Source: Lingula anatina
Taxonomy: Eukaryota > Animalia > Brachiopoda
DNA: 64,000 nt
Direction: 5' to 3'
Assembly: GCA_051362555.1 (NCBI GenBank)
Contig: CM120647.1
Coordinates: 7,192,001 to 7,256,000, forward strand
Shown here: in pieces, positions 7,125 through 62,263 of the stretch
Numbering within the stretch: position 1 is the first letter of the stretch
Layout of the letters: every line of letters starts with the position of its first letter
Position numbers and translations under genes: made by a program
The notes under the pieces: generated by a model
Database searches by the model: none
Told to the model about the DNA's origin: nothing
Seen by the model: only the letters and a program-made list of their open reading frames with translations

Positions 7125-7168
<44 letters not shown>

Positions 7169-7500
7169 CGTTAAATTTGTAAATACTTTACGGTTTAATA
7201 TTTGAAAAAAAGAGTTCTGTATAACATATATGATTTAGGCCTGATAAGCTGGGCAGCTTGAAAATGATTTACATGCCATGTTAATCAGCTTAGTTAGCCA
7301 CCCCATTCCATTGAGAGATCTCTTATATAAAGATGTATAGGCTAACCACAACTTAATTGACAATGCATTTCAGGGAATATTTCTTATGGGACAGAATGAG
7401 TAGGCTATCTCTTTACAAAAAAACATCTGCAGTGTGATGAAAATAATTAGGACTTTTAGGATTTTCCCTTGTAAGTTTTTTATAAGATGCTATTACACGT

Positions 7501-7597
<97 letters not shown>

Positions 7598-9269: not shown

Positions 9270-9342
<73 letters not shown>

Positions 9343-33480: not shown

Positions 33481-33519
<39 letters not shown>

Positions 33520-34800: not shown

Positions 34801-34846
<46 letters not shown>

Positions 34847-36502
34847 AATTTTAATTAGAAACTATTTTGATTATAGTACCTATTACATGAAATAGACGAA
34901 ATTAATGTCGGGTTGCAGATATTTTACAAGATTAGACTTTCTTTGATTACTGACAATCGTGTAATAACCGGATGTTGTTTTTAGTTAATATGCTGTTTTT
35001 CAGACTTAAGCCAAGGCAAAATGTATTTTAAAACTATTCTTTTCAAACATCAGGTGAATTCTGGATACAAAATTTGAATTGTCAGGGTTCTGAGTCGACC
35101 CTGGCTGATTGCCACCATGACGGCGTTGGAAAAATAAGCTCAACTTATTGCCCCAAGTCTTCGTCAGAGGACGCCGGCGTTCTGTGTAAAGGACGTGAGT
35201 ATATATTGGTTTTAATTTTCACCTTCATATATCACACTGTCTCTGTGAGGGAGACAGAATCTTTGCATGTAAAAGTACCAAAAAGGGCTGACAGGAATGG
35301 TAGTCCGATAAGAACAGTAGTACGTCCCTTATTACCTTTTAGAGTTGACATTTGTCACATATTCGTCTCACCCAACCTCCAATTCTCCGAATAACCTAAC
35401 TTGCATTAATATATGAGACCCCTGGCGCCCATTCCAGGGACTAAAATTTTTGTTACACGGCTATGCTTCGTGCAGTGCTGTTCTTACTCATTGTTTCTGT
35501 TTATTTGCTCTGTATTCCCAATAGCCAACGACGGGGAAATCAGACTGATCGGTCCCTCCCAATATTTCGGTCGAGTTGAGATATTCTACGCAGGAGGCTG
35601 GGGGAGAGTGTGTAAATACGGTTGGTCTCTGAATGACGCCAAAGTGGCTTGTAGACAGCTTGGCTTTAGCGGGACACTGCAGTACTTCACAGGATGGACA
35701 CCAAGAGGGACTTCGAGGGTGGTTCTAGGTACTGTTCGTCCGTATGTATGTGTGTGCATTTCAATCGGCCAACCTGCCTATGTGACTCTGTGTATTACTG
35801 ACCGTGTACCCTTTTTGGTTTCTTGTCTGTTTGAGCGTCTCTTCACCTGTCTCTCTGTGTTTATGTCTGTTGGTATGTCTGTACCCTCTACCAGGGCGAG
35901 TGATATATTTTTTACAGATATTCACAGATATGTCTCTAGCTAAATAGATGGTAATTTAGGGCTGAACTCACCCTGTTGAGGAATCTCAAGGCTGATTACA
36001 TGGCTGATAATTGTTTGCATAACTGCTCAGGCACTGCCACTTAGCAGGTCCAGTCTAAGTCTGCGTGACAGCAATCAAGACAGTTAATTACTCTGACTTC
36101 AATCACTTGCTCTTCTGTGACAGATAAAAAAAGCCTTAGACTGCTTGCTTAACAAGCGGTTATCACATCGTTGTGAAGCTCAGCTCATGCAGAGCAAGTG
36201 CAAAGCCTTTGGCGCGCGCACAGAGATTTGTTTCCACATGGGATTCCTCACCAGGGTGAGTTCAGCCCTAAATGACCATCTATCTAGCTAGATACATATC
36301 TGTGAATATCTGTAAAAAAAATCTATCACTCACCCTGGTAGTGGGTAGTATGTCTTTCTGTCTGTCTGTCTGTCTGTCTGTCTCTCCTGCTGATTATGAG
36401 TTCGCTTCACTGTTTTTATTCTGGAGATTTTTTTATTAAAACAAACGCTCAATACTTTATTGTGGTCAGGGGCGTTATTCTCCAAGGTTTATTACTTATA
36501 TA

Positions 36503-36572
<70 letters not shown>

Positions 36573-39500
36573 TATTTTTGTATCAGAGTTGCAGACGTGT
36601 CTGGAATACAATCTCTGGCCATGTTGTTTAGTGAGAAACGTTGAATATACATGGTATTATGATATTGTAAAAAATGGCATGTTATAAATTTGTCGTGTGT
36701 TTTGTGAAATTGAATACATTCGAAAACCAAAAAAAAAGTCGGAAGAACTTTATTTTGAACAATTATAAAATATCCACATGAGCTACGGTGATAGGGTGAA
36801 CCACATTGTTGGACAATGCACCCACCATTCCTTAATTTTTTTTTTTTTTTCAAGGAAAGGAATTATATGATGATTTCAGCGACATTCATGAATGCGAGGT
36901 TAAATTTCATTTAACCAGTCATGCAAATTTTGTGAGAAACTATGAAAAATTCCATTCGCATGTGTTTTGAAAATTAAATTTGACCCCACATTTATAAATC
37001 TCAAAGTAATTCCCATTTTATTTCTTTCATTGCAAAGAGTTAAAAAAAATCGAACACGTTGCTAGTGCATTAGCCATTCATATTGGTATTTATTTAAAAT
37101 CGCAATTTTCATCAATTTTTAGGTCGATTGTATAATCTAAAACAATGTAACATTTTGATGAGATGCTTATTTGCAATTAATTGACAAATAAAACTTTTTA
37201 ATTCAATTTTATTATTATTATTATTATTTATCATTATTAATATTTTTAATGTTCTTATGATTCTTATGATTCTTATTGTGCTTTTTTTTAAGGAAGTAGC
37301 CCTAGGATACAAGTACAGCGTGATTGTTAAGATATCAAATACAATTGAAAATTTTCAGACCAGTTAAACTGTGCCGGTACAGAAAGCAGAATTGATGCCT
37401 GCACTCATGGATGGATAGGCTACCCCATTTCAACATACTGCCGGGAAAATTCGGACGCAGACGCTGGAGTTGCCTGTGAAGCGCGTGAGTATAAGAGCTT
37501 ATTCAGAACAGCTGGTTTGCAAAGCTGCAGTTGAAATATGGCCGGGAATCTATCCAGTGTCTAATCGGGAAACAAGCGGCAAGCTTTTTAGTGGGTCGAC
37601 ATATTTGACCCGCAGGTCTGTTATTCCGCTGTTCTGAGTGCACTGTAAGCCTTGCACGAAATTCAGGATTTTGCTAGGAGTTCTGTCACACTACTGAGTC
37701 CAGAGGTCCGCCTAAGTAACGTATGTCAAACCAATTATTCCCACAATTTTCAACGTAAGAAATCGGTCTTATCCAGCATATCAAAAAGAACGTATAAGCA
37801 GCGTACAGAGAGCATATTGATATGTTTACACAATAAATCTTGCGCTTGCATGTCATATATGTCAAAATAAATGTTGCGAATATCAATGTTCTAGGACGCG
37901 GATTAGTACTGTACATCAGAGTTAAATTGGCATATATACAGCGTGGTCCAAAAAGATGTTTCCATTTTTGTTTAAGTGCCATTTTCTATTGATTATTATT
38001 TATTCTAGTAATTAAGGCCACCGGCTCATATTACAATTTTATAATTTATATTAAGATAATCACATGTATCAACAAATGTACCATGACAAAAAACAAAATT
38101 ATTATACAAGTGTAACAAACCTCTCATGACTGCTAGTAATACAAAATAATAACATGGTGCAATGGTAAAACAGAAACATAAGCCAACAATTAATATGTAA
38201 TGAGACAAACAATAGGACATCATACACAGAAATACATATGTCTAGGTAAGTAGCTTTAACTATTTTGAAATGCACTCTTGTTTTCATGTTTTAATCTCTC
38301 AAACCAAGTTTCTCTTATTGTCCGCATGAACTAGAGGAGCAGCTACTCTGCGGATAAGTGTTGCATCAACTGTAGACATGATTTCTATAAAAAATTTGTC
38401 TGACATTTTTTCTACTCTGTATGTTTGGTAACCACTCTTCTCTCAAACCATTATAAAAACGAGCACTCTAGAAGGAAGTGGTTTTCTGTTTCAACCTCAT
38501 CCACATCACAACTAATACACGCTTGCATATTTGGGTTTAATTCAAGGTGTCTTTCCTTTTCAATCGTGAGTGATTGATTTTGAACATCGCAACTTAGCAA
38601 GAGCTTTTCTATGATGAGTCTTATTGACCACTTTTATGCTATTACGTGTATTGTGTTTGTAGATATCTTCAGGCGCAAATGTTCTTTAAAAAGCAAAAAA
38701 TACAAAAAATCATTGGATATATATATATATTTTTTTTCTTTTAGAAATCTGTTTTATTTTTGTTTAATCACATTCAACTGCAGATTCACAGCAGAGCAGT
38801 TATTTTTAATTGACGGAAATTGTATGCTGTCGCTGTTCCTCAGGGCTAGTAAAAGCTATCCCATCACAAGATTTTTAACAATGTAGCTTTCACTGTGCCC
38901 TGACACTTAGGGTATGTAACCCAGGTTTTAGAGCAATTTCTCCAAATCTATACGTATGTTCCTTAAGAATGTGTAATACCTTTGAGGCTACTTGATTGCA
39001 ATTCATATCTTACACAAAAGCTTAATTATCAAAACCTTTTTTGAATTGAAACACATGTAGACATCGAAATACAATTAATTAATTGAAACACATGTAGACC
39101 GATGTTCGATGTAGACATCGAAATACAATTAATTAATTGTATTTCGATGTCTACATGTGTTTCAATTCAAAAAAGGTTTTGATAATTAAGCTTTTGTGTA
39201 AGATATAAATTGCAATCAAGTCTGACACTTTTACATTTCTAGCTGACGATGGCCAGCTTCGTCTGATGGACGGTAACGGCTACAACAGCGGTCGTGTGGA
39301 GATCAAGTTTGCTGGAGTATGGAGGCGTATCTGTGACAATGGATGGGGAAGCAACGACGCTGCAGTTGTCTGCCGACAGTTGGGGTATAACGGATATGTT
39401 AGAGCCGCGACAAGTAAGGCAGGAGATAACCCTTTTCTCTTTAATTCGATGTTTTCTACCAAGTCTGTTTTGTTTTAATAACCCACTTAACAAAAAAACA

Positions 39501-42467
39501 AAAATCCAGTTAAATTTCACCTACGGATATATAAGAAGGTCATTTCGACATCAGGTTGATCCATTTGTGGGCTTTTATCTGTTTAAATTCATAAAGGTAG
39601 GTGCATTTGCAGGACCAATAAACAAATAAAACATGCATTTGAGATATTTTTATGTTGGTTTTCAAGTACTTTGCCTACATGTACGTTATTTTATGACAAA
39701 CGAGAACTTTACCAGGCTGAGACGTCAAGGTAGATGAGTATGAGCGTATGGAGATAACCCCAATTGATTGAGTTAAAAGTGAGATGTGAATAAAGAAGAC
39801 ATTGTACCTCACAAGAAGGAACACATTATTGGTTTCTTTTGAAAATTATAGCTTTTTAGTCTCAACATTTCTTGTTTTGACATTTCAGGTTGGAACCCCA
39901 AAGGGAGTGGGGGGTTTTGGCTGCAAAATGTTGGTTGTCTGGGAACAGAGAGCAACCTTACAGACTGCACTCACGATGGAATTGCGGTAACCACGAGTTA
40001 TATGTGTCGTCGAGATGGGTATGATGACGCTGGCGTCTATTGCCAGGGATACTTACGTGAGTATACACGTATGTCTTTTTGTTGGTCGACCAGGCTGTTT
40101 CCATCTGCCTCTCATCTGTTTTTGGAATTCGTCTGTCTATACAACAGCATGTCTGTGGACCAATATCTCCTTTCAGGAAATTCTTGAGAGAGATGCGTTT
40201 AATCTCATTATGGCATATTTCAAAACGGTTTGAACAGTTGAATATGGAAATTTAATAATTGATATTTGTCGTCTATCTTCTCACCAGCGGGTGTTACTCC
40301 AACAAGTACAACCACCACCACACCGCACACAGGGGCCACAAAAACCACCGTTGCAGTAAGTCGTATTTATTGCTTTCATTTTTTTCGTTCATTTTCCCTC
40401 AGAATATATTTAATTTGCTGTCTGTTAACTTGCATATATATGTATGTATATATTAAGGTTTAATATGCAATTAGAATATTCGAATATTATTCTAGTACTA
40501 GTTTGAATAAATTTATTATATTGGCAGTTACTTTTAAACGAACTGAAATTTTGCCAACAAAGACAGGATGCCGTCTGTTTACATTCACATATCACCAGAG
40601 GGTAGAAATGTGATTGACTGGTAAGATATAGATTTTATATCTCAGTCTACTGAATAAATTAACTTTTAGTGAACACGTAACCAAATTATATTTAGTTTCA
40701 GAGAGGACCTAGATGTTACACTTGCTCAGGTACCTCCTCGTGTGGCAAATCACAAAGCCCGTTTTTCAACACCTACATCACATGTTCTTATGGATACGTG
40801 TGCCACGTGAGTCTCTTTCTCCCATTTGCAAGCGCACACACACGAGTGCAGCGCAAGCACACGGTCACTCACTCTCACACACGCGATTTAACACTCATGT
40901 ACACACAAAAGCAATACCCCCGTCACACTAGAGGCGGAATGAGCAAGAATGTCGTCGGAAAGCAATGCTTTGTGCGTTTCTGGATATTCAAAGAGCATTC
41001 TAAAAATTTCAAGTGCAATCCAGATATATTTTTCCATTCTTGTGGGCGGCCAGAATGTTTTGCTCATGTTAAAATCTTTCAAAGTACATTTCATGTGGAA
41101 AATTATCGAAAGGCATTTGAATAGTATTCTAACTGCACTATGACTGTATTCTAAATATCTTCACGGCATTCCGATAGCATTCGAAACATTCTGATCACAT
41201 TCGAAGGAGAATTGAAATGGCAAGACACTTCAAACCCTGCTAGAATGAGCCAGAATGCAACTCGAATGCATCTCGATCCTATTTCAGCCAGCAATCGAAC
41301 TACACTCGTACGGTCTTCGAAGTGTATTCTAAATATCCTGACTACATTCTGACAGCATTATTGATATTCCTAGCTTTCCAACTACATTCGAGCTGCATGT
41401 AAGAGAGAATACAGCCGAAATGACCACGAATCATTCCAGGCGGATTCAAGCGCATTCTGAGTATTCCAACCGCATTCTTACAAGGTCAATTGAAATTTCT
41501 TCCAGATTGTAGTACGAATTTTTTAACTTAGTCATTCCGACTGGTTTTGCTTGATTCCTGCTGATTCCGAATAAGTGTGACGGGGGCTGAAGCAAACACT
41601 TGCGATAACGCACACTAGCGCAGATTTGAACATAAAACATTTTTGCGCCAACCATAACGACGTGTGTCTGAAATGAACAAGTTTATAATTTTAACCTGTA
41701 GCAGTCGGGTTCAGCAGCAGTATCCTCATAATGCATTAACTACAAATTAAGATAAAATACTTTCTGCACAGATTTAGTCTACTAAAGGCTATACACCTCT
41801 TCAGGTTTGTTCTCTTCTTGACGTCAAAGTAATATTTTATGCAAACATTGTTATCGCCGTTTTAAAATTATATTTCTTCTTCTTTCTTTTTCTTCTTCTT
41901 CTCACAATATTTGTCAAATATTTAGTCGCAGGGACAAGCATTATGTCTAATAGTCGAATAGCATGGCAGTCTAAATTTAACAATGGCCAGTGAATGCACC
42001 AATTTAAATTTTCTTATTTCACCAGCTTCAAGTTTAATACTATTTGGATGAGACCTAGAGGAAGCTCTGTTAATACATTGGACATCATTGATTGTAATGA
42101 TTATTTTATGTTATTCTAATAATAATGTTTTGTTGTTATCATATGGATAAACATATTTTTGCAGACCACGGCCTCGGCGTATCGCAGTTACGCTGTCGGT
42201 TTAGGTTATTCCACTATTGCCTACAGCTACAGTCGTGGGTGCAGAGTCCGATCATTTTGTACCAGCCGAGAGTTCCAGGGCAATACCTGCACAGGAACTG
42301 GGACCAGTAGGGTCTGCAGGAAGTGCTGTGCTAGTGATTACTGTAACAGCGGTACACTGGATACGTCCCAAACCAGCAAAACCCCCACCAATAGAGGATC
42401 CAGTTCCCAAAGTGATTGGTCTAACGTGTTCTACGTGCTTTTGTTCTTTATCTTTGCTTGGAATTAA
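21297..42467 (+). CDS. SRCR/Ly6-uPAR GPI-anchored protein, paralogue B (signal peptide, 5 group-A SRCR, Thr-rich linker, LU domain, GPI signal; 736 aa)
   Basis: Exons 21297-21369, 29486-29644, 31572-31739, 32132-32323, 33678-33818, 34449-34640, 35054-35194, 35525-35728, 37359-37484, 39243-39413, 39889-40056, 40288-40355, 40702-40806, 42165-42467. All introns are GT-AG and the phases join into a 2211-nt open frame. Each SRCR has 6 Cys split over two exons, with GR[VL]E[IV], C[RK]QLG and DAGVxC motifs. The LU domain ends in CCxxDxCN and is followed by a hydrophobic terminal tail with no cytoplasmic part. AATAAA at 42503-42508. Confidence 0.9.
23039..23699. mobile_element. Non-autonomous Kolobok-like element (TTAA target, AG...CT ends)
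   Basis: Inserted at the TTAA seen empty at 17759-17762. Related sequence at ~31760-32052. Confidence 0.65.
23900..24183 (+). mobile_element. CCC...GGG-ended MITE with TAT target-site duplication
   Basis: Same family as 12336-12618. The empty site AGTGTTTATGTCTTG at ~18027-18041 shows a 3-bp TAT duplication. Confidence 0.88.
30266..30950 (-). mobile_element. PIF/Harbinger-like MITE, copy 1
   Basis: TAA on both flanks and an AGGCCCCGTCACACT terminus. Reverse-complement homologue of 40915-41588. Confidence 0.8.
30954..31528 (+). mobile_element. PIF/Harbinger-like MITE, copy 2 (head-to-head with copy 1)
   Basis: GTCACACTGGAGGCGGAATGAGC start and CCGAATAAGTGTGACTGGGGC end. Same family as 40915-41588. 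Confidence 0.8.
32654..32799. mobile_element. Short palindromic Harbinger-like MITE nested in an older element
   Basis: GGCTCCGTATCTCGAAAGGTTCGCT / AGCGAACCTTTCGAGATACGGAGCC arms with CAG on both flanks. The host element ends GTTGTGACCGAGGCTT at ~32946, which matches the terminus at ~24476. Confidence 0.8.
35884..36345. mobile_element. MITE with ~105-bp terminal inverted repeats (CCC...GGG, TA flanks)
   Basis: 35884-35988 is a near reverse complement of 36240-36345. Confidence 0.85.
38990..39221. repeat. Near-perfect ~95-bp inverted duplication (foldback) upstream of an SRCR5 acceptor
   Basis: 38990-39085 is the reverse complement of 39126-39221 with one visible mismatch. The spacer consists of partial copies of the arm. 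Confidence 0.9.
40915..41588 (+). mobile_element. PIF/Harbinger-like MITE, copy 3
   Basis: CCCCCGTCACACT / AGTGTGACGGGGG TIRs. Absent from the matching site in copy A (~6210). Confidence 0.85.
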
Positions 42468-45400
42468 AGGCATTCACCGCACGCTTTAGAACCTAATGTA
42501 ATAATAAACATTTAATTATCTAGCAGTTTTAAAACTTACACGAAATTATTATGGTAAACTATATTCCAGAGCCATTCACAAAAACATGTTTTAAAAGCGT
42601 TTTTGGAGCCCAAAGTATCCAATTTTTTAAATGATGTTAGAATTTATGGTAAATATATAGATCAGATTGTTCTTGGTTTATTGGTTCATTGGTTTAAAAT
42701 AGGGTTTACTTTTTTATATAAAGGCATAGTTGCTGAATTTTTTCTTTATTTTTTCTTTATTTTACTTATGTGTTTGTTTATTTGTGTTTGTTCGATGTAT
42801 AGAGAATGTTTAGATGTAATTGATTTGCCTTCAAGAGAATTATAGCCTACAATAGAATTAAAATATTTTATCAAATTTATTCTTTAATCGCATAAAATGA
42901 GAAGTATGAGTGATTCCATATAATGATTTGAAAAAAAAACTTAAATATTAGTTGAAAATGCTTACTGCTATTAGATAATATATAACTGCTATATAATTAA
43001 TTGTATAATTTGTACCCAATCTACAATAGCAGGGAAATGGGACTGTTTTACTGTATCGGTGATCGATTGTAATACCCGGTAGTAAAATTCATTGCAAATC
43101 TTAGATAGTGTAATTTGCACCAAATCTAAAAGTCAGACAAACGGAAATATGTCTTTATATACTGTAGCCGTGCCTTGCATTAGTTGTATTGAATATTATC
43201 ATTGTGAGTATAATATTACGTGCATTGTATACGCAAGCATCATTTAACCTTGTATCAAATCGCTTGAGCCAAATTATAGATGAATAAAAAATAAATTTGT
43301 CTCGAAAATAGTCATATATTTCAACATAAAGAATTGCCAGTTCTGTCGCACTTCATGCTGGTAACTACAACCATAATAATTATTTCCATCACGGCATTTT
43401 AAAAACTCCATCGATTTCACAGCTTAATTTATTCATTATGCGCCCTTGTCATGCTAAGTTAGGTTTTTGCCGCTTTCTATACACAAACACAGAAGAAAAA
43501 TTAAAACCTGCTAGTGTCGCCCCCTTTTATGTGACACCTACATAACTATGCCCACATGATACAATGTGCTTTATAGTAGGCCTACATGGGTTCATTTCAC
43601 TCGTTAGCTAAACTTAAAGCCTGCTAGATTTAGACGGCTGATTTCGTCAAGCCGATTTTACAGTAGTGGGCTCAGAGCCTTTAAGAATGACTGCCCCACA
43701 GTACAGGTATTGTAAAAGTATTTGACGTACCCACGTTAACTACCGTCACCATGCATACGCGGTTTGTGTATATCGGTCTTAATACCAGTGTAATAACAGT
43801 TTGCTCAAGGTGTGCAGTTAAACAACGGTTAAGACTTCCTTTTGTGAAGTGCACACCGGTAAGCTTTAGGCCTTTGTAGAACGGGATTTCTAACCCCAAA
43901 GCTACTACAAACTAGTGAAATAGACCCCTGCCCACTCTAGGATCTTACATTTTGTTAATTGTGGTGGGGGTGGGGGAATGATAAATTAACCTTTTGCTAA
44001 AAGTGCTTAAACAGTAGACCTGGACAACTCTACTGTAATGATTTTGGGTACAGGGAGGCAAAATCGCAATGATTTGAACCTTTTCACTTTTTCTCAATTT
44101 CTTTCCTGAGGGAAGCTATCACTGAACCTAAAGGGGGGTCACGTGACGCACTGCACATCCCATCTTCGGTGTCGCCATTGCTGCCACGGCTAAGATACGA
44201 CCGACCCAGGCTCAACTGAAGCCGTAATCCACACACGTAACTCCATAACATGCCCATACGGTAAAGTATCCGTTAATTTGAGACGGCTATTTATGCGCAA
44301 TGTTTTGTGTATTTAAGAACCGGTATATGGAACGTCCATTGTGATCAAGTCACGATCTTCTTGGCCAGTTTCTAGTTCACCTTGCTTGTGGTACCTATAC
44401 TTTGTGTACAATATACATCGTCGTGTGGGCGTGAGACGAACTTTTCATGGCCTGGCCGTCCTTTAAGGCACTTTTAACAAGTGCTGTTTTGAGTAAAGAG
44501 TATTTTATATCAACATAAAGTTCTGTTGTCGGAGGATATTTGATGATGCCCTTAGCACAAAAACTGTGGCTTTACAGAACAAATAAGAGTTATATTGCTA
44601 TTGGGGTCTGAGTGCGTATACGGACGATCGAGACCGACAAAAGGTGGTTCTCCTTTTAAATCAAAAGTCTTCTTTGCTAATAATATTTTACATTCCAGTG
44701 AATGCATAACCCCGTGCGACACGACTGAGTACAGAAACTATGGACAACACGCCATAAAATGACTCTAAGCTACAACCTTATTTACCTGTAATTTGCGACT
44801 AAGGTCTTTTAACCAAGACGAATTCAGCGCAATAGCAACACCGATGTTGAGTGTCCTGTCCTGCTATGAAAGGACACAGTAACAAAAGAATAAGGAACTC
44901 TTTCTTTGCCACTGAAATTAGTGCTATTTAGAGCACGAGTCGTGACATAGAAGGGGGTAATTTTTTTCTAGGCGCAGCCTCGATATTGTATAACACATAA
45001 CAATATTGTTTATGCTCTGTGACGTAGTGCTCGGGACTACTCATCTAAAATTCGGAAATTGTCTGGAAATCGTGGCCCAACCTCGAAAAATAATTGGGTA
45101 CTTCTTCGCGTGCTGCATGCACATGCAGGTACAGTAGACGACTCGTGTTATACCTGGTACTTTTAATGTCATTATACAATATGCCTGTTTTCCTTGGGGA
45201 CTTAAATTTTAAAGCGTTTTTAATTAATTGCAGTGGACGAGTATTTATAACTCGGTTATCCCACGGTGACCAAAAGTACCTGGGTCCTATAGCACCTAAG
45301 GCGTGTGTCCGTGTTTGGTTACGACTGCCGTGTATTGAAGCGCCTGGCATCCGTGCGACAGGATTTTTTTTTTCTCTTTGTGCGAGTGGTAACACCAAGA

Positions 45401-46645: not shown

Positions 46646-47827
46646 TTATGGTCGTACTTCTCCCAAGGCCCCTTCAGTGTATCCTCTGTGGATTAACTTC
46701 TCAAAGGCTCGGTCGTAATCACGGATCCATCGCCCGTTGTTTTGTGCATAGTCCAGCACAATCTCGGCCGTCCCGGCCAGCCCACAGTCATCAACGTTCG
46801 CGGAGCAGGCTGTAACGCGGCCCACGGCGTCGGGCTGGATATTGCGGTACAGGCACATGTCCGCGTTCAACATAAAGAACGGAGGAGGCGGTGCTTGGCG
46901 CTTCTGACGACCCACAAGTCTGTCGAGGATTTCACGGAGAAGAGCAGTCTGGCTGCCTGACCCGTCATTGAGTTCGAGACCACGTGGGCGCCCACCCCGT
47001 CCTCGCCCGGGCCCTCCATTTAGTCGGCCTCCAGGGGGAGGTGGTTGCTGGGGAGCCGGTTGTGGCGGGGCTGGGGCCGGCAGTTGAGGATTCCACTGCC
47101 AGTGCCCAGTGCCGTCGGCACCGGGTGGATCTACATTCAACTGGGCCCAAGCCTGGTCTCTCAGGGCGATGTAGTACTCATTGTCAAACACGTCTCGGTT
47201 AGGCACCCACCTCCCTCTGAAGCCTGAGTTCAGGGGGGCGGCGGCGCCAACCGTGTGAGCACCGAGTAGGGCGACGATGTCACGTGGTGTCATGTTGAAG
47301 TCCGTCTCAAAGAAACCCAGGGTGGCCTGGAGTCCGGCATGACCGCTAGGGAAGGTATGGACCTCGGTCGTTGTCGGTGATGTTGGGCAGTCCGTCCTTC
47401 CCCAGAGAAACCTCGGCCGCGACACAGGGCAACGCGGACAGTTTGGGTGATTCAGAGAGCCCACTTCGCCTCCGACGATACCGGCCAACGCCCAGAAATC
47501 AGCACGAGAGATGACACCGGCCAGGTTTTCGGAGGCGTAGACACCCTCGAGGGACTCGATGACATTTCTGAGGCCGTTGTTCTCGGGGTTAGCAAGGTTT
47601 ATGCACCCGTCGCATCTCTCCCCAACACAGTCGTGAAACGACAGGCGGATAGTGGACGCTATCAGAGGCTGGATGGTTTGGCCATTGGTGTCCTGGATTG
47701 TAGTGTCCCTGATCAAGGTGGTCAGAATTCCTCTCACTCGATTAAAAGCAGCTTCAGTTAAGGGTGGGAGATCCCGCTGCCCGTGGACGACGCACAAAGT
47801 CAGCGAGAAGACTAGCAGGCGAAGCAT
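46646..47827 (-). CDS. Secreted heme peroxidase, peroxidase-catalase (plant/fungal/bacterial-type, APX-like) superfamily; intronless, 393 aa
   Basis: First ATG at 47827 in AAAACCATG context (the track's 47866 start is GTG). Signal peptide MLRLLVFSLTLCVVHG. Distal motif IRLSFHDCVGERCDGC, ISRADFWALAG helix, GRTDC, proximal ALLGAHTVG, GRW...FDNEYY, and MLNADMCL with the proximal Asp. Confidence 0.93.
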   Translation of the reverse strand: MLRLLVFSLTLCVVHGQRDLPPLTEAAFNRVRGILTTLIRDTTIQDTNGQTIQPLIASTIRLSFHDCVGERCDGCINLANPENNGLRNVIESLEGVYASENLAGVISRADFWALAGIVGGEVGSLNHPNCPRCPVSRPRFLWGRTDCPTSPTTTEVHTFPSGHAGLQATLGFFETDFNMTPRDIVALLGAHTVGAAAPLNSGFRGRWVPNRDVFDNEYYIALRDQAWAQLNVDPPGADGTGHWQWNPQLPAPAPPQPAPQQPPPPGGRLNGGPGRGRGGRPRGLELNDGSGSQTALLREILDRLVGRQKRQAPPPPFFMLNADMCLYRNIQPDAVGRVTACSANVDDCGLAGTAEIVLDYAQNNGRWIRDYDRAFEKLIHRGYTEGALGEVRP

Positions 47828-48261
47828 GGTTTTTGATACCGTCTTCACTTGGTCAGTTCTCGACACAGACTACCCAATGCCTCTGTCCGAGACAACATTT
47901 ATTTGCGCTGCCATGTGTACGTAAGTGGTCTCATACTAATATGCTATTGTGAACGAGTCACGATTTCTCTGCCGTGTTTGTGATGCGATTTGCTTGTGAT
48001 TAAGGGGTGAGAAAAGGGCGGGGTCACACTTTAGCCAGCGATATGAATCTATTCGATGAACGACACCCGTTCACTCTCAGATGCGAAAGATCTGTGCCTA
48101 TTGTATATTGGCTCTTTCGCAGCAATATACTGTTTCTGCTTTTCTCAGTAAAATGTTCAAAATGTATCAATGATTTGAAAAACGATCAAGTAGAAAGTCT
48201 GGACCCCCTTTACCAACCTCATTCGGTTCAACGGGAACGATTCTTCCTGGGGCAGGGACGT

Positions 48262-51000: not shown

Positions 51001-51229
51001 AGGGTGTATTCCCAGGGATTTAGATCGACACAGAGATTATGATTTAGATCGACCTAACTCCCTGGGGGTCCACGCTACATTGCAGTCAGCCGAGCGCGCA
51101 CCATAGTTACTCACCGCCTTACAGCTTTCAGTATAGGCGGGACAGACGCTTAAGCCGGCTAATCTGACAGAAATCAAGTGAGACTCCCCACAGGGATAGA
51201 TCGATCTAAAATCTATGGAAATGGGGTCT
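51001..51229. mobile_element. Small Harbinger-like MITE (related fragment at ~7985-8040)
   Basis: Inverted GATTTAGATCGA / TCGATCTAAAATC ends. Shares the AGTGAGACTCCCC..GGGA.ATAGAT..ATC segment with 7985-8020. Confidence 0.5.
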
Positions 51230-51980
51230 AAGTATAGGTGGGTATAACAACGACGTTAGAATAGTACCATAATGTATTCACAGATATACAGGTCGGCAAA
51301 ACGCAAATTAATTAATATAAAAACAGGAGAATATTGGATCCAAGGACATAAAGTCACAGTGTACACCGCGAAGACACAACAAAGAATGCCTCAGAGGAGG
51401 CCTGAAGCGAATTGCAATTGTGGTTCCGTTCATCACAGCGAGTTGGTATAGAGAAAATGCATTCTGGGTACTTGGAGCACGGTCTCTGAATGGGAAAACT
51501 GGCATCCGCACACTATATTGACGGTTCGGTTTCCAAGCCTTGTGTTTTTAGTATGTAATTTATATAATAAAACAATGAGGTAGTGCTCGGCGACACATGC
51601 TTCTCTATACGCTATTGTTCATCCATACAATAAATAAACGCTGTTATATAAGCGATATGTTCGAAAAAATATACAGTTACATGTTTGTCAATATGTTGCC
51701 TTCACTTGGGGATCTTTACCGAGCAGGAGAGCTGCTGGTTTGACACGGGACTGTAGAAGGACGGTCAACTATACGTGGATCATGTGCAGAGTTACGGTAC
51801 CACATGTTATTACTATCCACCCTAGACATACATGTATTTAATCCACATGCACCGGTGCTAAAATATTGCCCTCAAAGGCGTTATTCGTTTACATTGGAGA
51901 TCTTATCTGAATAAAAAAAAAATATATATGGCCAATCAGATGTTTGATAAGAGCAAAAAATAAAAAAAATGCTTCTGATT

Positions 51981-52135
51981 TCAAAACATGTGCTCCATAT
52001 TCGTGTTAGAGATCTCTTGACATTTACACATCAGGTCGTAATTGATGCGTTCAGTGACTACGGAGTCCTTCTTGTAGTCCGGATGTGACGTCACAAAGTC
52101 TCGAATCCATCTGGCGGTGGTGGGCGTTTCTCCTG

Positions 52136-52176
<41 letters not shown>

Positions 52177-53183
52177 TGCTATTTACGACCACGTTCGTCA
52201 TTTGCCGCAGGACTGTGTATGCTATATTAACATTATAACTAAAAAACAAGAAATCTGAACAATGGAGCCACTGTCGTGTTAAAAATAAAATATAAATATA
52301 TCAACGTATACACAAGCCCTCCAAACATTCCGGAATAGCGTTGACGACACGAGTGAAACCCTCATAACAAACAGTTTACCACTTTGCAAAGACATAATAC
52401 ATATACATACATATTTCTGTTCATTATGTTTTCTATTATGATAATAATATCATCATATTACTCTTGAGAAAAGATTTATTCTTACCTGACGCTCTTTTCC
52501 CAATGAAGGCCAGGTATCGCGCTGCAGTCGCTCTAGTTTCAATATGAATCTTGTCGTGATCGTCTAAGTATCTGTTAACCAATGGGATTAATCCCGGGAA
52601 AACTTTGGACTTAAAAATGTAAATAATTACCTGACGCTCTTTTCCCAATGAAGGCCAGGTATCGCGCTGCAGTCGCTCTAGTTTCAATATGAATCTTGTC
52701 GTGATCGTCTAAGTATCTGTTAACCAATGGGATTAATCCCGGGAAAACTTTGGACTTAAAAATGTAAATAAATAAGCACTTAAATTCAATATATGGATAA
52801 TATACAAATATGTCAATCACTGACAGAAAATATTATGGAATTATGGTTTCTGCCCCCCCCCCCCCCTAAAAAAAATCCATAAAAAGAGGCTGGTATGTCA
52901 ATACCTCCATATGAAGTGTTTCTATACTGGTGTTTCTTCATGGAAAATCTTTTATTATTCTGCTTCCTTGCGTATGCATTAAACGGGAAGCAATGTATGC
53001 TTTTTAGTTGGTGTGAAGGTGTTTTATTGAGTGGTAATTATTTTACCTTTCCATTGAAAATTTCATCAGCTGTCATCAGAGAAAACATGTTATGATTCAA
53101 TTCATAGCCGTTGGTTTGGTGTATTCCGTTTGGGATTTTCAATGGCTCTGAAATAAGGATACTAAGCTGAACCAATAAAAGTA

Positions 53184-53228
<45 letters not shown>

Positions 53229-54209
53229 TTCTGCAAAAATTCAGTCAGAGAATAAACATGTATACCACATATGTGATAATTATTTGATCAAGTTAACAGA
53301 GGTGAGATAACAGTCACCTTTATTCGTAAATATATCGTCTCTAAAGTAAAACTTGCTCGATCTCACTGCGTCTCTTTTTGAAGCTCTTCCCATGTTTTCA
53401 TCGACCTAAAGAGATAAAGTGTTTATTCATATCTGTATATAATATATCATCTTAACAGGTTATTTTACCTTTCTCAATCAATTATTATCATAAAGATAAT
53501 TTCATTATTTTGGGAAAAATAAGTAATGATTATAAATAAGTCTATCACATTGTATATGAAACTTATGGAGTCCACGTAGAAGATGTTTTTTCAATTTTAT
53601 TATTATTATTATTATCATTATTATTATTATTATTATTATTATTACCTTTGAGATGGGTATAGCAAGGTTGATATTATACTTCAGAAGGGCACGAGTCAAA
53701 AAAACCACAAATACAGCAAATGCTGCGTTTTCAAAATCTGTCAGTTGTACCTGTAGAATACAAAATTGTCATTCATATTAGTAGATAAGTGAATAAAATA
53801 AATTATAAATAAGAAGACAAATACGGTGGATATTACTACGGCTGTGTTCCTTTTGTGAATTTGTAACAATGCCTTAGATGTAGTTTTTTCAGTTTATTAC
53901 AGTATAGGTACATTTTCAGCCTTTCTCCAGACGGGCATACATGCAATTTCAATATTCAAAGTAATCAAATGCAAACAGTGTCAACAACAAAACTCGAATT
54001 CAGCTGTTGCTCTCTTTAGAGTAAGCTATTAAAAATCAACTGAAGTTTCTATCAATGATTTCAAACATGATTCTGATATCTTATATTCTGCATTTTTAAT
54101 TGCACGCAGTGAGTATGAATTGAATTGCACAAATCAGTTTCATACACACACGCACGCAGGCATATATATGCAAGCTCACACAGACTCTCTCTCTCTCTCT
54201 CTTTCTCTT

Positions 54210-54284
<75 letters not shown>

Positions 54285-54653
54285 CAAAGAGAGAAAGAGA
54301 GAGAGAGTCTTTTTGTCGTACGTCCAATGGTCTGAACTCCAAACACCAGCCGGCTGACGTCGATGGAATCTTTAACCGAACAGACGGGTAATTATTTGCT
54401 TGTACGATCTGAAAGTAAAACTTTGTAATAGTGTATTGAGAAAATAATGCAGTTATGTTAAAGGATAGTTAAAAAGACATCAGCTTCTAGCAGTTGATGA
54501 TGTCACCAATGACAATGTACGTGCGAAAAAATGTTTTTTATCCAAAAATCAAAATTGATTGAAGAAGATGCGTCATTTTGTATTAGACTTTGTGTATTTG
54601 CATATGCTGTATATATTACTATTTTTTTTATTTTATTTTATTTTATGTTATTT

Positions 54654-54684
<31 letters not shown>

Positions 54685-57600
54685 TTCATTTTTTTTTGTG
54701 TAAAACTACTAAAATAGTTATTGTTGGTATAACCGTATAAAGACTTAGAGAGTCGAATCGTTTGTCTCCACATTGCTGCACGTGGCGGTCAGATAATCCC
54801 AAAGGATCTCGCGAGAACAGGTTCGTGACGTAACGAGACATGGCGTCATCCACCCCTGGTGAAATTAGAAAGAGTGCACATGAAAATAAAAGCATGCATT
54901 TAAACAAATTGAACAAAGCCATTAAGTATTGAGTTAAATAAAACACCAGTGTATATTTATGTCCATAAATTTTGCAGTCGAATTAAAACAAACCGTTCAG
55001 CAAATAAATAAATGAATAAATAAATAGCGAGCCTCATTGTAATTATTACGAGTGTATGATCCGTAACAAAGACAATGGATTCGTAATGGTAATGGAAATG
55101 CATTCTCGTTTCTTCATTATAAAATACAGATATTCTACTAAGTGGATTCAAGCCATGTATTGCACGCCTAAATAGATTTAATTATATACATCACCGTGTT
55201 TCAGAAGTGTCCCAAAGATCTCGTCATCCATGAACATCGGGCCGTCGTTATAGCAGGAGTTACAAGGTTGTGCATAGCAACTCACGGAGTCGATACGAGA
55301 TTTTGTCGTCCTGTTGGTGCCAGTTCTTCTATTCTGTAAATATCAACTTTCCAAATATGCAAGAAGAAGGCAGCAATACTGTAGAACAACACAAAGATAT
55401 GTATTTGACGCCAAGGAAGCCACGTGCAGTGCAAAATTACTTTTAACAGTTTAAATTAGAGGAATTTAAATATGGTTGTCCAATATAACATTTCAAGCAG
55501 AATCCTAAGAATCTTGGGGTGCTCAGTTTTCATAAAGACGCACAATAACGCAAACACCTTTTAAAGAAATGTGTAATAATTATACTCGCTATAATTACCT
55601 GCCACAAATGCTCTTGCGTTTTCTCATCGGTGTATTGAACAAAAATTGGCCAGCGGCAATCAACGTCTGACAAGTAGCCTCTGTGAATGGGCGTTGCTGC
55701 ACTAAGCGCCATCTATGGAACAATTCATAACATTTCAATCAACAATGCTTGAGATGGCATCCTCTGGGCAAACAAGTATATATGCAGTATTCTTAATCAA
55801 GCATTTTTGCTATGCAAATTTTGATGACATCATTTTGTTATGTTAAACTATGGCCCATATCTTGTCAAAGTGAACCATCCCAAGGGGTCAGTTTCCATTG
55901 GCCTATTGGGACACGTAGTCATCTACGTTATGAATATACCGTACATCCAGTTCAGGTATACAGTTTTTTCATAAAGTTGATGATCATCGACAATTAATCA
56001 AAACAAATATATCGAAAGTGAAAAATAATTTTCACAATCTTACAAGCACTGGGCAAAGAGCTGTCAGCTGATCATGTACAGCCCTGGCTTCATCTAAGTC
56101 ACGTGCTTGCAGGGTCAGTTGCAATGAACAACTAGCGCCAAAGAAACTGATCCCATTGTCTATATAGATTGTATCCTTCTGTGCCTCTTCCTGCGCTTTG
56201 CCTTTGTCGCCGAACTTTGAGAGGTCTTCTTCAAATGGATCCAAAGTGTGAACGTCTTTAAATACTGCAGAGAAACACAATGTAACTGTTAACTTATGTA
56301 TATTATATAGTATCTATATTTATAATATTTACATTGACATTACATTGTAATCAGTATTGGAAAAGACGCCTGGAGAAGAGCGTTGGAGGCTAAAACTAAG
56401 AGACTCTGGAAGAATTGAATTCAACTTTTGAGATCCCAGGACAGGTATGCATGGTAAGATAGTAAATATAATTAGGTGATCTATGCTCAAATGCAACTGT
56501 AGGAGTCAACGATATACATATAACCAATAAACATAAAATAGACACAGAAATTAGTGTGTTTACGCACTCGGTATATGGTCCGTGTGACGCCCTCTTCTGT
56601 TTAGCCTGTTGTTAAATGCCATTGCACTGTAAATATAAAGCATATATACTTACTGTTGTAGTCTAGTTTATGACACGCTGAGTATATCAGATAAAAAACT
56701 TAGTCCATGTACAGTATGTAGCATATTATTTTCGAGTATTCTGGTACACATGCAAAATATAAAAGCGTTTAATTGTCTTGATAAACCTTAACCATATAGT
56801 CAACACAAATTTTAGTTGATATGTTACATGATATGTTTAAATGTAAACATAGCTTTATCTGATACATTAATGCACACGAGTATACAGTGCAATGTCAGTT
56901 ATTAGATTTGAATTCAAACGATTTTTTCCAATGGTTAACGAAAACTTGCAGAAAATTGCTTATGAACAATTGCGAATTTATCTTTCCATGAATTATAAAA
57001 AAACGAAACAGCCGATAAAGTGTTTCGTTTTCTATGTCGATCTTACTTATATCTTCCCCCTGTAATTGCCGCATCTGGGAAAAACAGAGATTGTGTTATA
57101 CCGGAAGTGGGAGTTGGCGCATGCAAAGGCCAGGTGAAACCTCGACATCCGGTTCTGTGAGAAAAAGAACATGATGTTGAGTTCATTTATAATACATGTA
57201 AAATCATATTCTATTGAATGAGTATAGACTATAATAAAGTCCACGCAGTAACGAGTTAAAATATATTTATTGTTGGTTATTCTGGCATTTACAAATGAAC
57301 GAGAACAGTATGAAATAACAGTACCTCGGAAATGTTCCAATAGAAATAACAGAGCTGCTTTCCGAGTTGAATGCCTGTTGAATCAATTGCCTCCTAGAGA
57401 AATATGAAAAAGGACAAGGAAAAAATACAGTAAAATACAGTAACAAATTTACTTAGACTGACTGACTGACAGACAGGTAGATGGAAAGTGAAACCGGGGC
57501 CTAGACCCATATTTATCTACGTACCGTTGGGCCATGCTTCTTTCTACTGATTTGATGGACTCTACGTCTCCTGCATATGGCTTGAAAGGCACTGACTCTA

Positions 57601-58744
57601 CCATATAGCTTGAGTATTCCCGCTGCCAAGCGTCTTGCCATTGACTGAAAAAACAAATAATAATAATAATAATACATTTCTTGAACCCCCCCTGCTCGTG
57701 CGTCTCAGGGCTGTTAACATTTACATATTAAACTAAAACTACTAAACTAAATTAAAAACTAACATTAAAGCATTAAGAACTAGATGATAAAATTTAGCCA
57801 AAATATTATTTAAATAGAGAGGTTTTAATTTTTAACAGTGATAAAAGTCATCAAAATACACATTTGGTCTGTTAATAAAATTGGACCATAATATTGGTTC
57901 AGCAAGCTCAAAAGCCCTGTGACCAAATGTTTCAAGAGTCTTTTTGGTATAGTTTCGCTTCACTTGTAAATGCACTTGTAAATAAACTTGCAGTCGAATT
58001 TCACATTATTTACATTTTAATTCTAATGCAGCGTTTATAACTGTAAATCTAACATTCTGACGATGCAGCAGATTACGTAAAAAGTTAAGACTGAGGATAG
58101 AGCCATCTGAATAGACCGATTGAAATCTCTGGGAGAGAGGAGCAACACATACTGTCGGTTAGACTAACCATACGAAAGATATGAGAATTAGATATAAATT
58201 TTATACTTATTAATTGTTCGTGAAATACTGTTATGTTCCGTCTATCACATTGATACAAAGAACTTACGTATACTGTTCTTATTTTGACAATGTAAATGAT
58301 ACATGTGTTTAAAAAGGGGAGGGGGTCCTCTACATGCATTAATTGGCTGAATCTTGAGATGTAAGACGGAACCGTCAAGGGTTCTCAGTCTATTGACAGA
58401 AAATTATTTAAATTTACAATAAATGAAAGCCACACAGAATTTGCCGAAGAGCTCAATGTTACCCCAAGAGCATCATTTGGCAACCGTATGGAATAGGCCT
58501 CTGTAAAGCGTTCGTGCGTCTTAGAAAATAACATTGCAAGATTTCACCCTGGGGCCTATGAGAGGGTTGATTCCACAAAAAAAAAAGAAAGAGTTTGAGT
58601 GAGGATAAATTATAAAAAAAGACCATGATAGCGTGCTTGCCTTTTTCCCCCCGATTTCTTCAACGTGGCCACCAACTCAACAGCTTTAATGGCAACTTTT
58701 ACAGTTTTCTTCTCGTGGTCAAAATGCAATAGGATATATTCGGT
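51981..58744 (-). CDS. GCLC: Glutamate-cysteine ligase catalytic subunit-like protein, divergent paralogue (exon 1 not located; 570 aa in window)
   Basis: Exons in transcription order: 58641-58744, 57525-57644, 57325-57393, 57047-57154, 56568-56626, 56044-56264, 55599-55712, 55195-55333, 54734-54855, 54322-54408, 53646-53750, 53318-53405, 53047-53147, 52631-52754 (or the identical 52486-52609), 51981-52132. Total 1713 nt, frame open to TGA. Recognisable GCLC motifs: EYILLHFDHE, SLFFPDAAI, MALSAATPIHRGYLSDVDCRW, LFSRDPL, EFRPLDVQLTDFENAAF, FPGLIPLV, TTARWIRDFVTSHPDYKKDSVV. The donor at 54734 (GTTATA) is the least certain boundary. The symbol denotes family; one-to-one orthology is doubtful. 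Confidence 0.88.
52482..52771. repeat. Exact 145-bp tandem duplication containing a whole GCLC-like exon
   Basis: 52482-52626 and 52627-52771 read identically. Confidence 0.95.
54185..54307. repeat. Compound (CT)n(CA)n(GA)n microsatellite in a GCLC-like intron
   Basis: Read directly. The (CT)n and (GA)n arms are mutually complementary. Confidence 0.9.
57655..57950 (-). mobile_element. 3' end of an L2/CR1-like LINE in a GCLC-like intron
   Basis: The minus strand reads FGHRAFELAEPILW and later KTSLFK, followed by a (TAT)n tail. Confidence 0.55.
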
Positions 58745-60278: not shown

Positions 60279-60760
60279 CACAATTTATGGCCAGTTTCTT
60301 TCTTTTTTTTTTCATCTCTTTCTTTCAGAAAACCACTAATTAATCCCTTTAAATGTACATGGATTTATACGTGGAAACCCATGTATTTTCACTAACAATA
60401 TTTTTACATATTGTGTACACTGGTCTTACTTTCCCTACCGGCTACTTTAATTTTCATAACAACATCGAACCCGGTAACCTACAAGGAATATTTCACATTG
60501 ACTGTACTATTCTACACTGTAGCTTATAGCACGGAACCATCATTTTATTTGAATGATTGTTGTTTGATTGTTAGAAAGAATCGTCATTCTCTCTCCACTT
60601 ACCAATTAAATATTAAATGTAATACGGGTAATCATTCAATAATAAAAATGTTGCATCTCCTGAGAAATAAAAAGTACTTCATATATACATGTAGTTTCCC
60701 GTCTTCAGAATGTTTATCTGAAATACAATCAAGGGGGATATTTTTACACAATTTATGGCC

Positions 60761-60791
<31 letters not shown>

Positions 60792-62263
60792 CATCTCTTT
60801 CTTTCAGAAAGCCACTAATTAATCCCTTTAAATGTACATGGATTTATACATGGAAACCCATGTATTTTCACTAACAATATTTTTACATATTGTGTACACT
60901 GGTCTTACTTTCCCTACCGGCTACAATTATTTTCATAACAACATCGAACCCGGTGACCTACAAGGAATATTTCACATTGAGTGTACTATTCTACACTGTA
61001 GCTTATAGCATGGAACTATCATTTTATTTGAATGATTGTTGTTTGATTGTTAGAAAAAAAGCGCCTTTCTCTCTCCACTTACCAATTAAATATAATTTTG
61101 ATAAGAGGGACTGTTTTGTTAAAAAGAGAACAAATACATTTCGAAAAATGCATTCCCAACATTGAATTTGAAAAATGTTCATGTTTTACTATATACCGGG
61201 AGAATAAAGTGCACCTAATATTAAATAGTGATAATAGGAAAATCCACTATAATTATTTTTTTCCATTGCCATGGATAATTATTCCATGACTTGGTATACA
61301 CGATGTTCAGAAAGCCACTAATTAATCCCTTTAAATGTACATGGAAACCCATGTATTCTCACTAACAATATTTTTACATATTGTGTACACTGGTCTTACT
61401 TTCCCTACCGGCTAAAATTATTTTCATAACAACATCGAACCCGGTGACCTACAAGGTATATTTCACATTGACTGTACTATTCTACACTGTAGCTTATAGC
61501 ATGGAACCATCATTTTATTTGAATGATTGTTGTTTGATTGTTAGAAAGAAGCGTCATTCTCTCTCCACTTACCAATTAAATATTAAATGTAATACGGGTA
61601 ATCATTCAATAATAAAAATGTTGAATCTCCTGAGAAATAAAAAGTACTTCATATATAGTTTCCCGTCTTCAGAATATTTATCTGAAATACAATCAAGGGG
61701 GATATTTTACCATCTTAGTTGACACAGTTTATGGCCAGTTTTTTTTTTTTTTTTTTCATCTCTTTCTTTCAGAAAGCCACTAATTAATCCTTTTAAGCGT
61801 ACATGGATTTATACATGGAAACCCATGTATTTTCACTAACAATATTTTTACATATTGCGTACACTGGTCTTACTTTCCCTACCGGCTGCAATTATTTTCA
61901 TAACAACATCGAACCCGGTGACCTACAAGGTATATTTCACATTGACTGTACTATTCTACATTGTAGCTTATAGCATGGAACCATCATTTTATTTGATGAT
62001 CGTTGTTTGATTGTAAGAAAAAAGCGCCTTTCTCTCTCCACTTACCAATTAAAGATAATTTTGGTAAGAGGGACAGTTTTGTTAAAAGAAAACAAATACA
62101 TTTGAAAATGCATTTCCATCATTGGGTTTGAAATGTTCATGTTTTACTATATATGGAGAGAATAAAGCGCACCCATTATTAAACAGTGATAATAGGCATC
62201 TGTACTATATTTATTTATTTTTCATTGTCATGGAATATTATTCCATGACTTGATGTATACGAT
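60279..62263. repeat. Tandem array of four ~480-bp units arranged as an (AB)2 higher-order repeat of ~970 bp
   Basis: The core TTG[TC]GTACACTGGTCTTACTTTCCCTACCGG recurs at 60411, 60890, 61381 and 61855. Units 1 and 3 share one tail; units 2 and 4 share another. Confidence 0.92.

What the first reader, a model, noticed from the sequence alone, without database searches (positions are those of the whole stretch)
51981..58744. Intact GCL-family ligase with conserved catalytic core but rewritten substrate pockets: candidate new carboxylate-amine ligase
Seen: 15 exons keep an open frame, so this is not an obviously dead gene. Residues matching the metal ligands and catalytic positions of eukaryotic GCL are retained (TEY, REY, MVES, LQ, DCRW, VRLK, EFRP). 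Motifs that I recall as nearly invariant from yeast to human are changed: IYMDAMGFGMGxCCLQ becomes IYIDNGISFFGASCSLQ (1-aa insertion; the Cys before LQ is now Ser); KSRYDS becomes KSRIDS; WxVISxxVDDRT becomes WPIFVQYTDEKT; NIQSTNWQTMRFKPPP becomes IVQANNYPSVRLKIPS; GWRVEFR becomes GWCLEFR. Known, recalled from the yeast Gsh1 structure and needing alignment to confirm: the KSRY Tyr (Tyr362) and the Cys264/Cys266 segment contact glutamate, while the MGFGMG methionines and the NWQ Trp line the cysteine site. Inference: this is a paralogue that still makes an acyl-phosphate and an amide bond but with different acid and/or amine substrates, i.e. an animal metabolite ligase derived from glutathione synthesis.
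Basis: partly seen in the sequence, partly recalled or inferred. Interest (0 to 1): 0.8.

Follow-up and report, generated by a model that had tools for sequence, protein, structure and literature searches.

The report
Lamp-shell glutathione enzyme with rebuilt pockets
This lamp-shell (Lingula) gene is an intact, spliced, strongly diverged copy of the first enzyme of glutathione synthesis that keeps the ATP- and metal-binding residues but has replaced residues that line the substrate pockets, so it likely joins glutamate to an amine other than cysteine, making a product that is still unknown.

Summary
Observation confirmed. Fifteen minus-strand exons (58744-51981) give a 570-codon open frame matching Lingula anatina RefSeq XP_013418129 at 563 of 570 residues. 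Exon 1 lies outside the window but is spliced on in RNA reads. The gene is spliced in 3 of 7 runs laid and essentially silent in 4. The predicted fold is that of yeast Gsh1 (Z 42.5, rmsd 2.3). All nine metal/ATP/catalytic residues tested are kept, while a third of family-invariant columns changed, including Tyr362, Trp445, Met258, Met262, Cys266 and Arg468 (yeast numbers). Lingula has a second full-length remodelled copy (65% identical, same core) and a third that looks degenerate; they form one clade on a very long stem. No canonical Lingula GCLC turned up in two capped searches, and the genome could not be searched. Similar pocket-remodelled GCLC copies recur in mussel, horseshoe crab, mite and other eukaryotes (18 of 108 fully scored cluster representatives). 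Best reading: a gamma-glutamyl ligase with a non-cysteine acceptor (about 50%); no activity was tested. Rivals: altered but real GCL, other donor or reverse chemistry, decaying pseudoenzyme. New variant of a known kind.

The parts
58641..58744 (-). Exon 2 (first in window); carries the Glu52 equivalent (E54); GC donor inferred
   Evidence: reads join its 5' end to an exon 1 that matches P0001 (loose end at 58746)
57525..57644 (-). Exon 3; Glu96 and Glu103 metal ligands kept
   Evidence: joint 57392-57524
57325..57393 (-). Exon 4
   Evidence: joints
57047..57154 (-). Exon 5; Arg196 equivalent kept, Phe197 now Tyr, His-Pro before it deleted
56568..56626 (-). Exon 6
   Evidence: joints
56044..56264 (-). 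Exon 7; remodelled Met258-Cys266 loop with one extra residue; Gln268 and Gln272 kept
55599..55712 (-). Exon 8; Arg313-Trp314 kept, following helix changed
55195..55333 (-). Exon 9; Tyr362 (glutamate alpha-carboxylate contact) replaced by Ile331
54734..54855 (-). Exon 10; ends on a weak donor that adds three residues, confirmed by reads
   Evidence: joint 54408-54734; P0001
54322..54408 (-). Exon 11; Trp445 to Tyr, Arg468 to Cys; Arg449, Lys451, Glu470 and Arg472 kept
53646..53750 (-). Exon 12
53318..53405 (-). Exon 13
53047..53147 (-). Exon 14
   Evidence: joint 52754-53047
52482..52771 (-). Exon 15 in an exact two-copy 145-base tandem repeat (52754-52631 and 52609-52486); only one copy can be used in frame
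   Evidence: reads fit both copies alike
51981..52132 (-). Exon 16, last coding exon with stop codon; 3' UTR reads run on below 51981

Best explanation
It is an intact, spliced member of a Lingula clade of GCLC-derived genes that likely still acts as an ATP-dependent gamma-glutamyl ligase but likely uses an acceptor other than cysteine. Shown: gene structure, splicing, sample-restricted expression, residue conservation pattern, paralogues. Predicted: Gsh1 fold. Inferred mechanism: three Mg ions held by E52, E54, E96, E103, Q254 and E428 plus R415, K417 and R430 let ATP phosphorylate an acid to an acyl-phosphate; E96 positions an incoming amine that attacks it to give an amide, ADP and phosphate. 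The donor is most likely still glutamate (E54, R299 and R430 kept), held more loosely since Tyr362 is lost. The acceptor site is rebuilt (Trp445 to Tyr and its loop, Met258/Met262 loop, Phe197 to Tyr, Ile317 to Phe); the Arg196 equivalent is kept, which by my recollection of the yeast structure favours an amino-acid-like acceptor over a plain amine.
For: Open frame over 15 exons and spliced, strand-specific reads in X1-X3. Model pLDDT 90.8, pTM 0.93; best match yeast Gsh1 3ig5, Z 42.5, rmsd 2.3 over 586 residues. P0001 keeps only 122 of 186 family-invariant columns (66%) but 9 of 9 core residues, and 14 of 14 if D49, Q272, R196, R313 and R361 are added; 0.66^9 = 0.024, 0.66^14 = 0.003 (sites chosen by me from the yeast structure). 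P0001 and P0002 are 80% identical at family-invariant columns and 49% at variable ones, which points to purifying selection since they split. Contacts listed for yeast Gsh1 in Table 3 of PMC5613772: Tyr362 to glutamate and Trp445 to cysteine are both changed here; Glu50, 52, 96, 103, 470, Arg472, Asp49 and Lys451 are all kept. Stem branch 1.28 against 0.10-0.48 for canonical end branches. Near-zero depth in X4, X5, X6, X7, while the neighbouring peroxidase gene is covered in X6 and X7, is unlike a housekeeping glutathione enzyme.
Against: No assay. No canonical Lingula GCLC was found, so these copies might carry glutathione synthesis themselves. Cys266 and Cys264 differ in an active Leishmania enzyme too. 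7 of 10 coding differences between the window and RNA reads are non-synonymous (neutral expectation not rejected, p 0.46; control gene 7 of 16 listed, Fisher p 0.25), and the window differs from the RefSeq allele at 7 of 570 residues. Arg468, kept in 143 of 147 cluster representatives, is Cys here, which could weaken ATP use. The roles of Met258, Met262, Phe197, Arg196 and Arg313 are recalled: the two primary yeast structure papers were not held. X6 and X7 reads differ from the window at many sites of the neighbouring gene, so their silence may reflect population rather than tissue.
Confidence: 0.5

Rival explanations
1. It is still a glutamate-cysteine ligase, with altered kinetics or lost glutathione feedback; the remodelled Lingula copies together may even be the animal's only GCL.
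For: Same fold and core; E96, R184 and R299 kept; no canonical Lingula GCLC among the best 120 hits, although insects and vertebrates at about 62% identity made the list; Cys266 is dispensable in Leishmania; RefSeq names it GCLC (automatic).
Against: Tyr362, Trp445, Met258 and Met262 are 99-100% conserved in 189 canonical sequences and all changed; expression absent from 4 of 7 runs; both lists were cut at 120, so a partial or unnamed canonical model could be hidden.
Confidence: 0.2
2. It activates an acid other than glutamate, or runs related chemistry backwards (amide hydrolysis or exchange through an acyl-phosphate, as the same fold does in Dop).
For: Tyr362 lost in all three Lingula copies (Ile, Met, Asn) and the 256-266 loop differs between them; the fold family includes YbdK, PafA and Dop.
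Against: E54, R299 and R430, equivalents of glutamate contacts, are kept; nothing positive points to another acid.
Confidence: 0.12
3. It is a pseudoenzyme or a gene in early decay under relaxed selection, in a birth-and-death cluster.
For: High protein-changing polymorphism; Arg468 lost; the third copy (P0209/P0288) is annotated without several whole exons, among them the one that carries Arg449-Arg472; low read depth.
Against: Core residues kept in two copies that are 35% diverged, both full length; open frame and correct splicing; a confident model.
Confidence: 0.12
4. It is a gamma-glutamyl-monoamine synthetase of the kind measured in Aplysia nervous tissue (gamma-glutamylhistamine synthetase), used to inactivate biogenic amines.
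For: Gamma-glutamyl conjugation is described as the main monoamine route in gastropods (PMC6454038 passage); the enzyme name appears in a cited title; a snail and a mussel also have remodelled GCLC copies (P0114, P0140). That no gene is assigned to this activity is my recollection.
Against: No link to Lingula or to nervous tissue; the Arg196 equivalent (recalled as binding the acceptor's carboxylate) is kept; tissue of the runs is not known.
Confidence: 0.06

Closest known systems
Eukaryotic (group 2) glutamate-cysteine ligase catalytic subunit, GCLC / yeast Gsh1 (EC 6.3.2.2, Pfam PF03074, PDB 3IG5)
   Same: Whole-length homology (40-45% to animal GCLCs), fold (Z 42.5), all Mg, ATP and catalytic residues tested but Arg468, and most intron positions (human exon layout recalled, not fetched).
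   Different: Tyr362, Trp445 loop, Met258-Cys266 loop (one residue longer), Phe197 and Arg468 changed; shorter C-terminus; restricted expression; multi-copy clade on a very long branch.
Lingula anatina XP_013418129.1 (P0001), XP_013382742.1 (P0002), XP_013418128.1 / XP_013382741.1 (P0209 / P0288)
   Same: P0001 is this gene or an allele (563 of 570 residues); the others share the core and 33 of 58 jointly changed invariant columns with the same new residue (P0002).
   Different: Databases label them plain GCL; pocket loop and the Tyr362 position differ between copies; the third copy lacks several exons as annotated.
Pocket-remodelled GCLC-like copies in other animals: Mytilus XP_076117635 (P0140), Tachypleus XP_076326354 (P0145), Oppiella CAG2178612 (P0146), Bulinus (P0114)
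   Same: Core intact, methionine loop changed, long branches.
   Different: Different replacement residues; most keep Trp445 and Arg468. Only the Mytilus copy and unnamed P0156 group with the Lingula clade (96/91), and all three are long branches.
YbdK / GCS2 carboxylate-amine ligases, PafA and Dop
   Same: Same catalytic fold (Z 13-29); precedent (recalled) for the fold being reused with other amines or in reverse.
   Different: Bacterial, 8-15% identity, not the source of this gene.

Membership tests
GCS family PF03074 (group 2 GCL homologues) | Profile match above the curated cut-off | tested here: met
   395.8 bits against cut-off 25, whole profile
GCS family PF03074 (group 2 GCL homologues) | Gsh1 fold | tested here: met
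   Predicted model against 3ig5: TM 0.85; Z 42.5, rmsd 2.3, 586 aligned
Canonical GCLC (EC 6.3.2.2) | Mg ligands Glu50, 52, 96, 103, Gln268, Glu470 and catalytic Arg449, Lys451, Arg472 | tested here: met
   9 of 9 kept
Canonical GCLC (EC 6.3.2.2) | Glutamate contact Tyr362 | tested here: not met
   Ile331; Tyr in 99% of 189 canonical sequences; contact listed in PMC5613772 Table 3
Canonical GCLC (EC 6.3.2.2) | Cysteine contact Trp445 and Met258/Met262 pocket | tested here: not met
   Tyr411; loop rewritten. Trp445 role; methionine roles recalled
Canonical GCLC (EC 6.3.2.2) | Arg468 near ATP | tested here: not met
   Cys426; Arg in 100% of canonical set and 143 of 147 representatives
Canonical GCLC (EC 6.3.2.2) | Forms gamma-Glu-Cys; rescues gsh1; binds GCLM | not testable with these tools
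   needs assay
Canonical GCLC (EC 6.3.2.2) | Is the animal's single housekeeping copy | tested here: inconclusive
   At least three remodelled copies exist and this one is silent in 4 of 7 runs, but no canonical Lingula copy was found
Pseudogene | Broken frame, lost splicing or no transcript | tested here: not met
   Open frame, spliced reads, exon 1 joined
Pseudogene | dN/dS near 1 | tested here: inconclusive
   Polymorphism 7 non-synonymous to 3 synonymous; between-copy protein conservation is structured; no DNA of the paralogues was held
gamma-Glutamylhistamine / monoamine synthetase (Aplysia activity) | ATP-dependent glutamylation of monoamines, neural expression | not testable with these tools
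   no sequence standard found; tissue of runs not given

The most novel reading that the evidence does not exclude
The Lingula genes and the mussel copy are an old, unrecognised lophotrochozoan subfamily of small-molecule ligases born from GCLC, part of a repeated recruitment of GCLC duplicates across invertebrates to make non-glutathione gamma-glutamyl metabolites; one of them may be the missing gene for the gamma-glutamyl-amine synthetase activity of molluscs, and Lingula may have no ordinary GCLC at all.
Probability: 0.2. Interest if true: 0.85.

Novelty: new variant of a known kind. Interest (0 to 1): 0.52.

Why it matters
Animal GCLC is treated as a single-copy, single-purpose enzyme. A constrained, expressed clade with the chemistry kept and the pockets rebuilt points to uncharacterised animal amide-bond metabolites and shows that the database label 'glutamate-cysteine ligase' is unsafe for such copies. 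It is cheap to test (soluble single-chain enzyme, ADP-release screen). The recurrence in several invertebrate groups makes a family-wide substrate screen more valuable than this one gene, and lowers the surprise of this single case.

Tried and rejected
Whole-genome search: no genome held. Exon 1 in the window: none by tblastn. Canonical Lingula GCLC: not named among the best 120 of 1245 hits or 120 of 3925 hits; unnamed Logan sequences could not be assigned, and none stood out as the parent (best 0.38 against mean 0.28, sd 0.04 at 150 variable columns). No RNA holder was listed by index; raw-read runs of the same species label were laid instead. A suspected broken donor at exon 10 was rejected: reads use a donor nine bases further on. 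Horizontal transfer or retrocopy was rejected: best hits are animal GCLCs and the gene has 15 introns. FastTree placed the clade among unrelated long branches, taken as long-branch attraction; the careful tree (32 of about 380 proteins held) groups it with Mytilus P0140 and P0156, also long branches; no AU test was run. Shared derived residues with non-Lingula sequences were at most 14 of 59 and did not single out the mussel copy (9 of 58), which weakens the old-subfamily reading. ESM Atlas gave only generic GCS clusters. Literature: searches for Lingula with GCL, GCL paralogues in invertebrates, fungal GCL homologues in biosynthesis, mollusc GCLC expansion and yeast residue names returned 0 papers; the one supplement of the Lingula genome paper has no mention. 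The library lacks most subscription papers, so this is weak evidence of novelty. No complex prediction was run: no partner sequence was at hand.
Full report
Gene structure. Reading the minus strand gave GCL-like stretches from 58744 to 51981. With splice sites fixed by frame and reads, 15 exons give 1713 bases, 570 codons and no internal stop. One donor is GC; one exon lies in an exact 145-base tandem duplication. The largest exon found a single protein, P0001 = XP_013418129.1 of the brachiopod Lingula anatina, 622 residues; the window differs from it at 7 of 570 residues. Its first 52 residues (exon 1, with Asp49 and Glu50 equivalents) are not in the window. No whole genome is held.

Expression. 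Seven of nine listed RNA runs were laid. X1, X2 and X3 (one study; about 6 in 100 of each run read) gave 118, 110 and 128 reads, nearly all with the first mate on +, i.e. RNA from the minus strand, with depth confined to exons. Nine of 14 introns show as listed joints; loose ends show the last intron and, in 15, 9 and 20 reads, a join to a sequence that translates as the end of P0001's exon 1. Joints were not listed for the GC-AG intron and for three introns near simple repeats. X4, X5, X6 and X7 gave next to no depth, although X6 and X7 cover the neighbouring peroxidase gene. Tissues are not given, and X6 and X7 differ from the window at many sites, so 'restricted' may mean tissue, stage or population.

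Fold and residues. The AlphaFold2 model (93-row alignment) has pLDDT 90.8 and pTM 0.93 and matches yeast Gsh1 best (TM 0.85; Z 42.5, rmsd 2.3, 586 residues). Yeast numbering was read from the alignment. The primary yeast papers were not held; contacts come from Table 3 of PMC5613772 (passages and parts 3 and 4 of 7 read). Against 189 canonical sequences (hits without P0114 and the Lingula ones), P0001 keeps 122 of 186 covered invariant columns, yet keeps Asp49, Glu50, Glu52, Glu96, Glu103, Arg196, Gln268, Gln272, Arg313, Arg361, Arg449, Lys451, Glu470 and Arg472. Changed are Tyr362 (Ile), Trp445 (Tyr) with the residues around it, Met258 and Met262 (loop rewritten, register uncertain because of a one-residue insertion), Cys266 (Ser), Phe197 (Tyr), Ile317 (Phe) and Arg468 (Cys). 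Tyr362 contacts glutamate and Trp445 cysteine in the yeast enzyme. Cys264 is only 50% conserved and Cys266 is Ala in the active L. donovani enzyme, so these two carry little weight. The roles of the methionines, Phe197, Arg196 and Arg313 are recalled.

Paralogues and selection. Lingula has a second full-length copy, P0002 (XP_013382742, 65% identical), and a third, P0209/P0288, whose accessions neighbour P0001 and P0002 on their scaffolds and which lacks whole exons as annotated. P0001 and P0002 share the intact core, share the same new residue at 33 of 58 jointly changed invariant columns, and are 80% identical at invariant against 49% at variable columns: most remodelling happened on the common stem and was then held. 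The pocket loop and the Tyr362 position differ among the three. Against this, 7 of 10 coding differences to RNA alleles change the residue; that fits neutrality (p 0.46) and does not differ from a partial control (7 of 16 listed, p 0.25). Present-day constraint is therefore not shown.

Phylogeny. In the careful tree of 32 proteins the Lingula copies form a clade (100/100) on a stem of 1.28 changes per column, against 0.10-0.48 for canonical end branches; they join unnamed P0156 and Mytilus P0140 at 96/91, but all are long branches, FastTree placed them elsewhere, and shared derived residues do not single out the mussel copy. An old subfamily is possible, not shown. No named canonical Lingula GCLC appeared in either capped list; this is the main open point.

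How common is the pattern. Of 149 representatives at 50% identity, 108 could be scored at all 14 sites; 18 keep all nine core residues and have changed at least 3 of 5 pocket residues; only one (P0256) besides the two Lingula proteins has changed all five. Named examples are Mytilus, Tachypleus and Oppiella. Earlier unreviewed notes of this scan report the same in an arthropod and in octopus; they are leads only, though P0153 grouping with Octopus GCLC fits them. So the Lingula gene is at the extreme of a recurrent phenomenon.

Mechanism and verdict. Most likely (0.5) it forms gamma-glutamyl phosphate and transfers the glutamyl group to a non-cysteine, probably amino-acid-like acceptor in particular tissues or stages. 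Rivals: altered true GCL (0.2), other acid or reverse chemistry (0.12), pseudoenzyme or early decay (0.12), monoamine glutamylation as described for gastropods (0.06; passage in PMC6454038; cited title in PMC4472778). It belongs to the GCS family but fails the pocket features of canonical GCLC. I found no paper on it (PMC4595640 seen as listing and supplement search, PMC9857879 as passages, neither relevant), within a library that lacks most subscription journals. New variant of a known kind; interest 0.52.

Noticed in passing
window 46646-47869 (-): Intronless 407-codon open frame, locally GC-rich (0.49), with a Pfam PF00141 haem peroxidase domain of the non-animal (cytochrome c / ascorbate peroxidase) superfamily and a likely signal peptide; transcribed in X1, X6, X7. 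Possible old horizontal acquisition; not tested.
   Followed up: partly
window 52482-52771: Exact two-copy 145-base tandem repeat that holds a whole coding exon with both splice sites; real duplication or assembly artefact.
   Followed up: partly
window 58640 (-): GC-AG intron needed to keep the frame after the first in-window exon; no read joint listed.
   Followed up: partly
window 51010-51232: Short element with inverted ends and very deep, diverse RNA coverage on both strands in all four runs; looks like a high-copy MITE-type repeat.
   Followed up: no
window about 4160-11130 and 32100-42490 (+): Two similar blocks of exons with SRCR domains followed by a cysteine-rich, probably GPI-anchored tail: tandem SRCR-protein genes.
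   Followed up: no
window 60299-62222: Four copies of a 479-base tandem unit in the long first intron of the GCL-like gene.
   Followed up: no
P0209 / P0288 (RefSeq XP_013418128, XP_013382741): Third Lingula copy, 97% alike on two scaffolds, each with an accession next to a full-length remodelled copy; annotated without several whole exons, so possibly a pseudogene in a tandem cluster.
   Followed up: partly
P0153 (unnamed representative): Pocket-remodelled GCLC-like protein that groups with Octopus canonical GCLC at 100/99: an independent, lineage-specific recruitment.
   Followed up: partly
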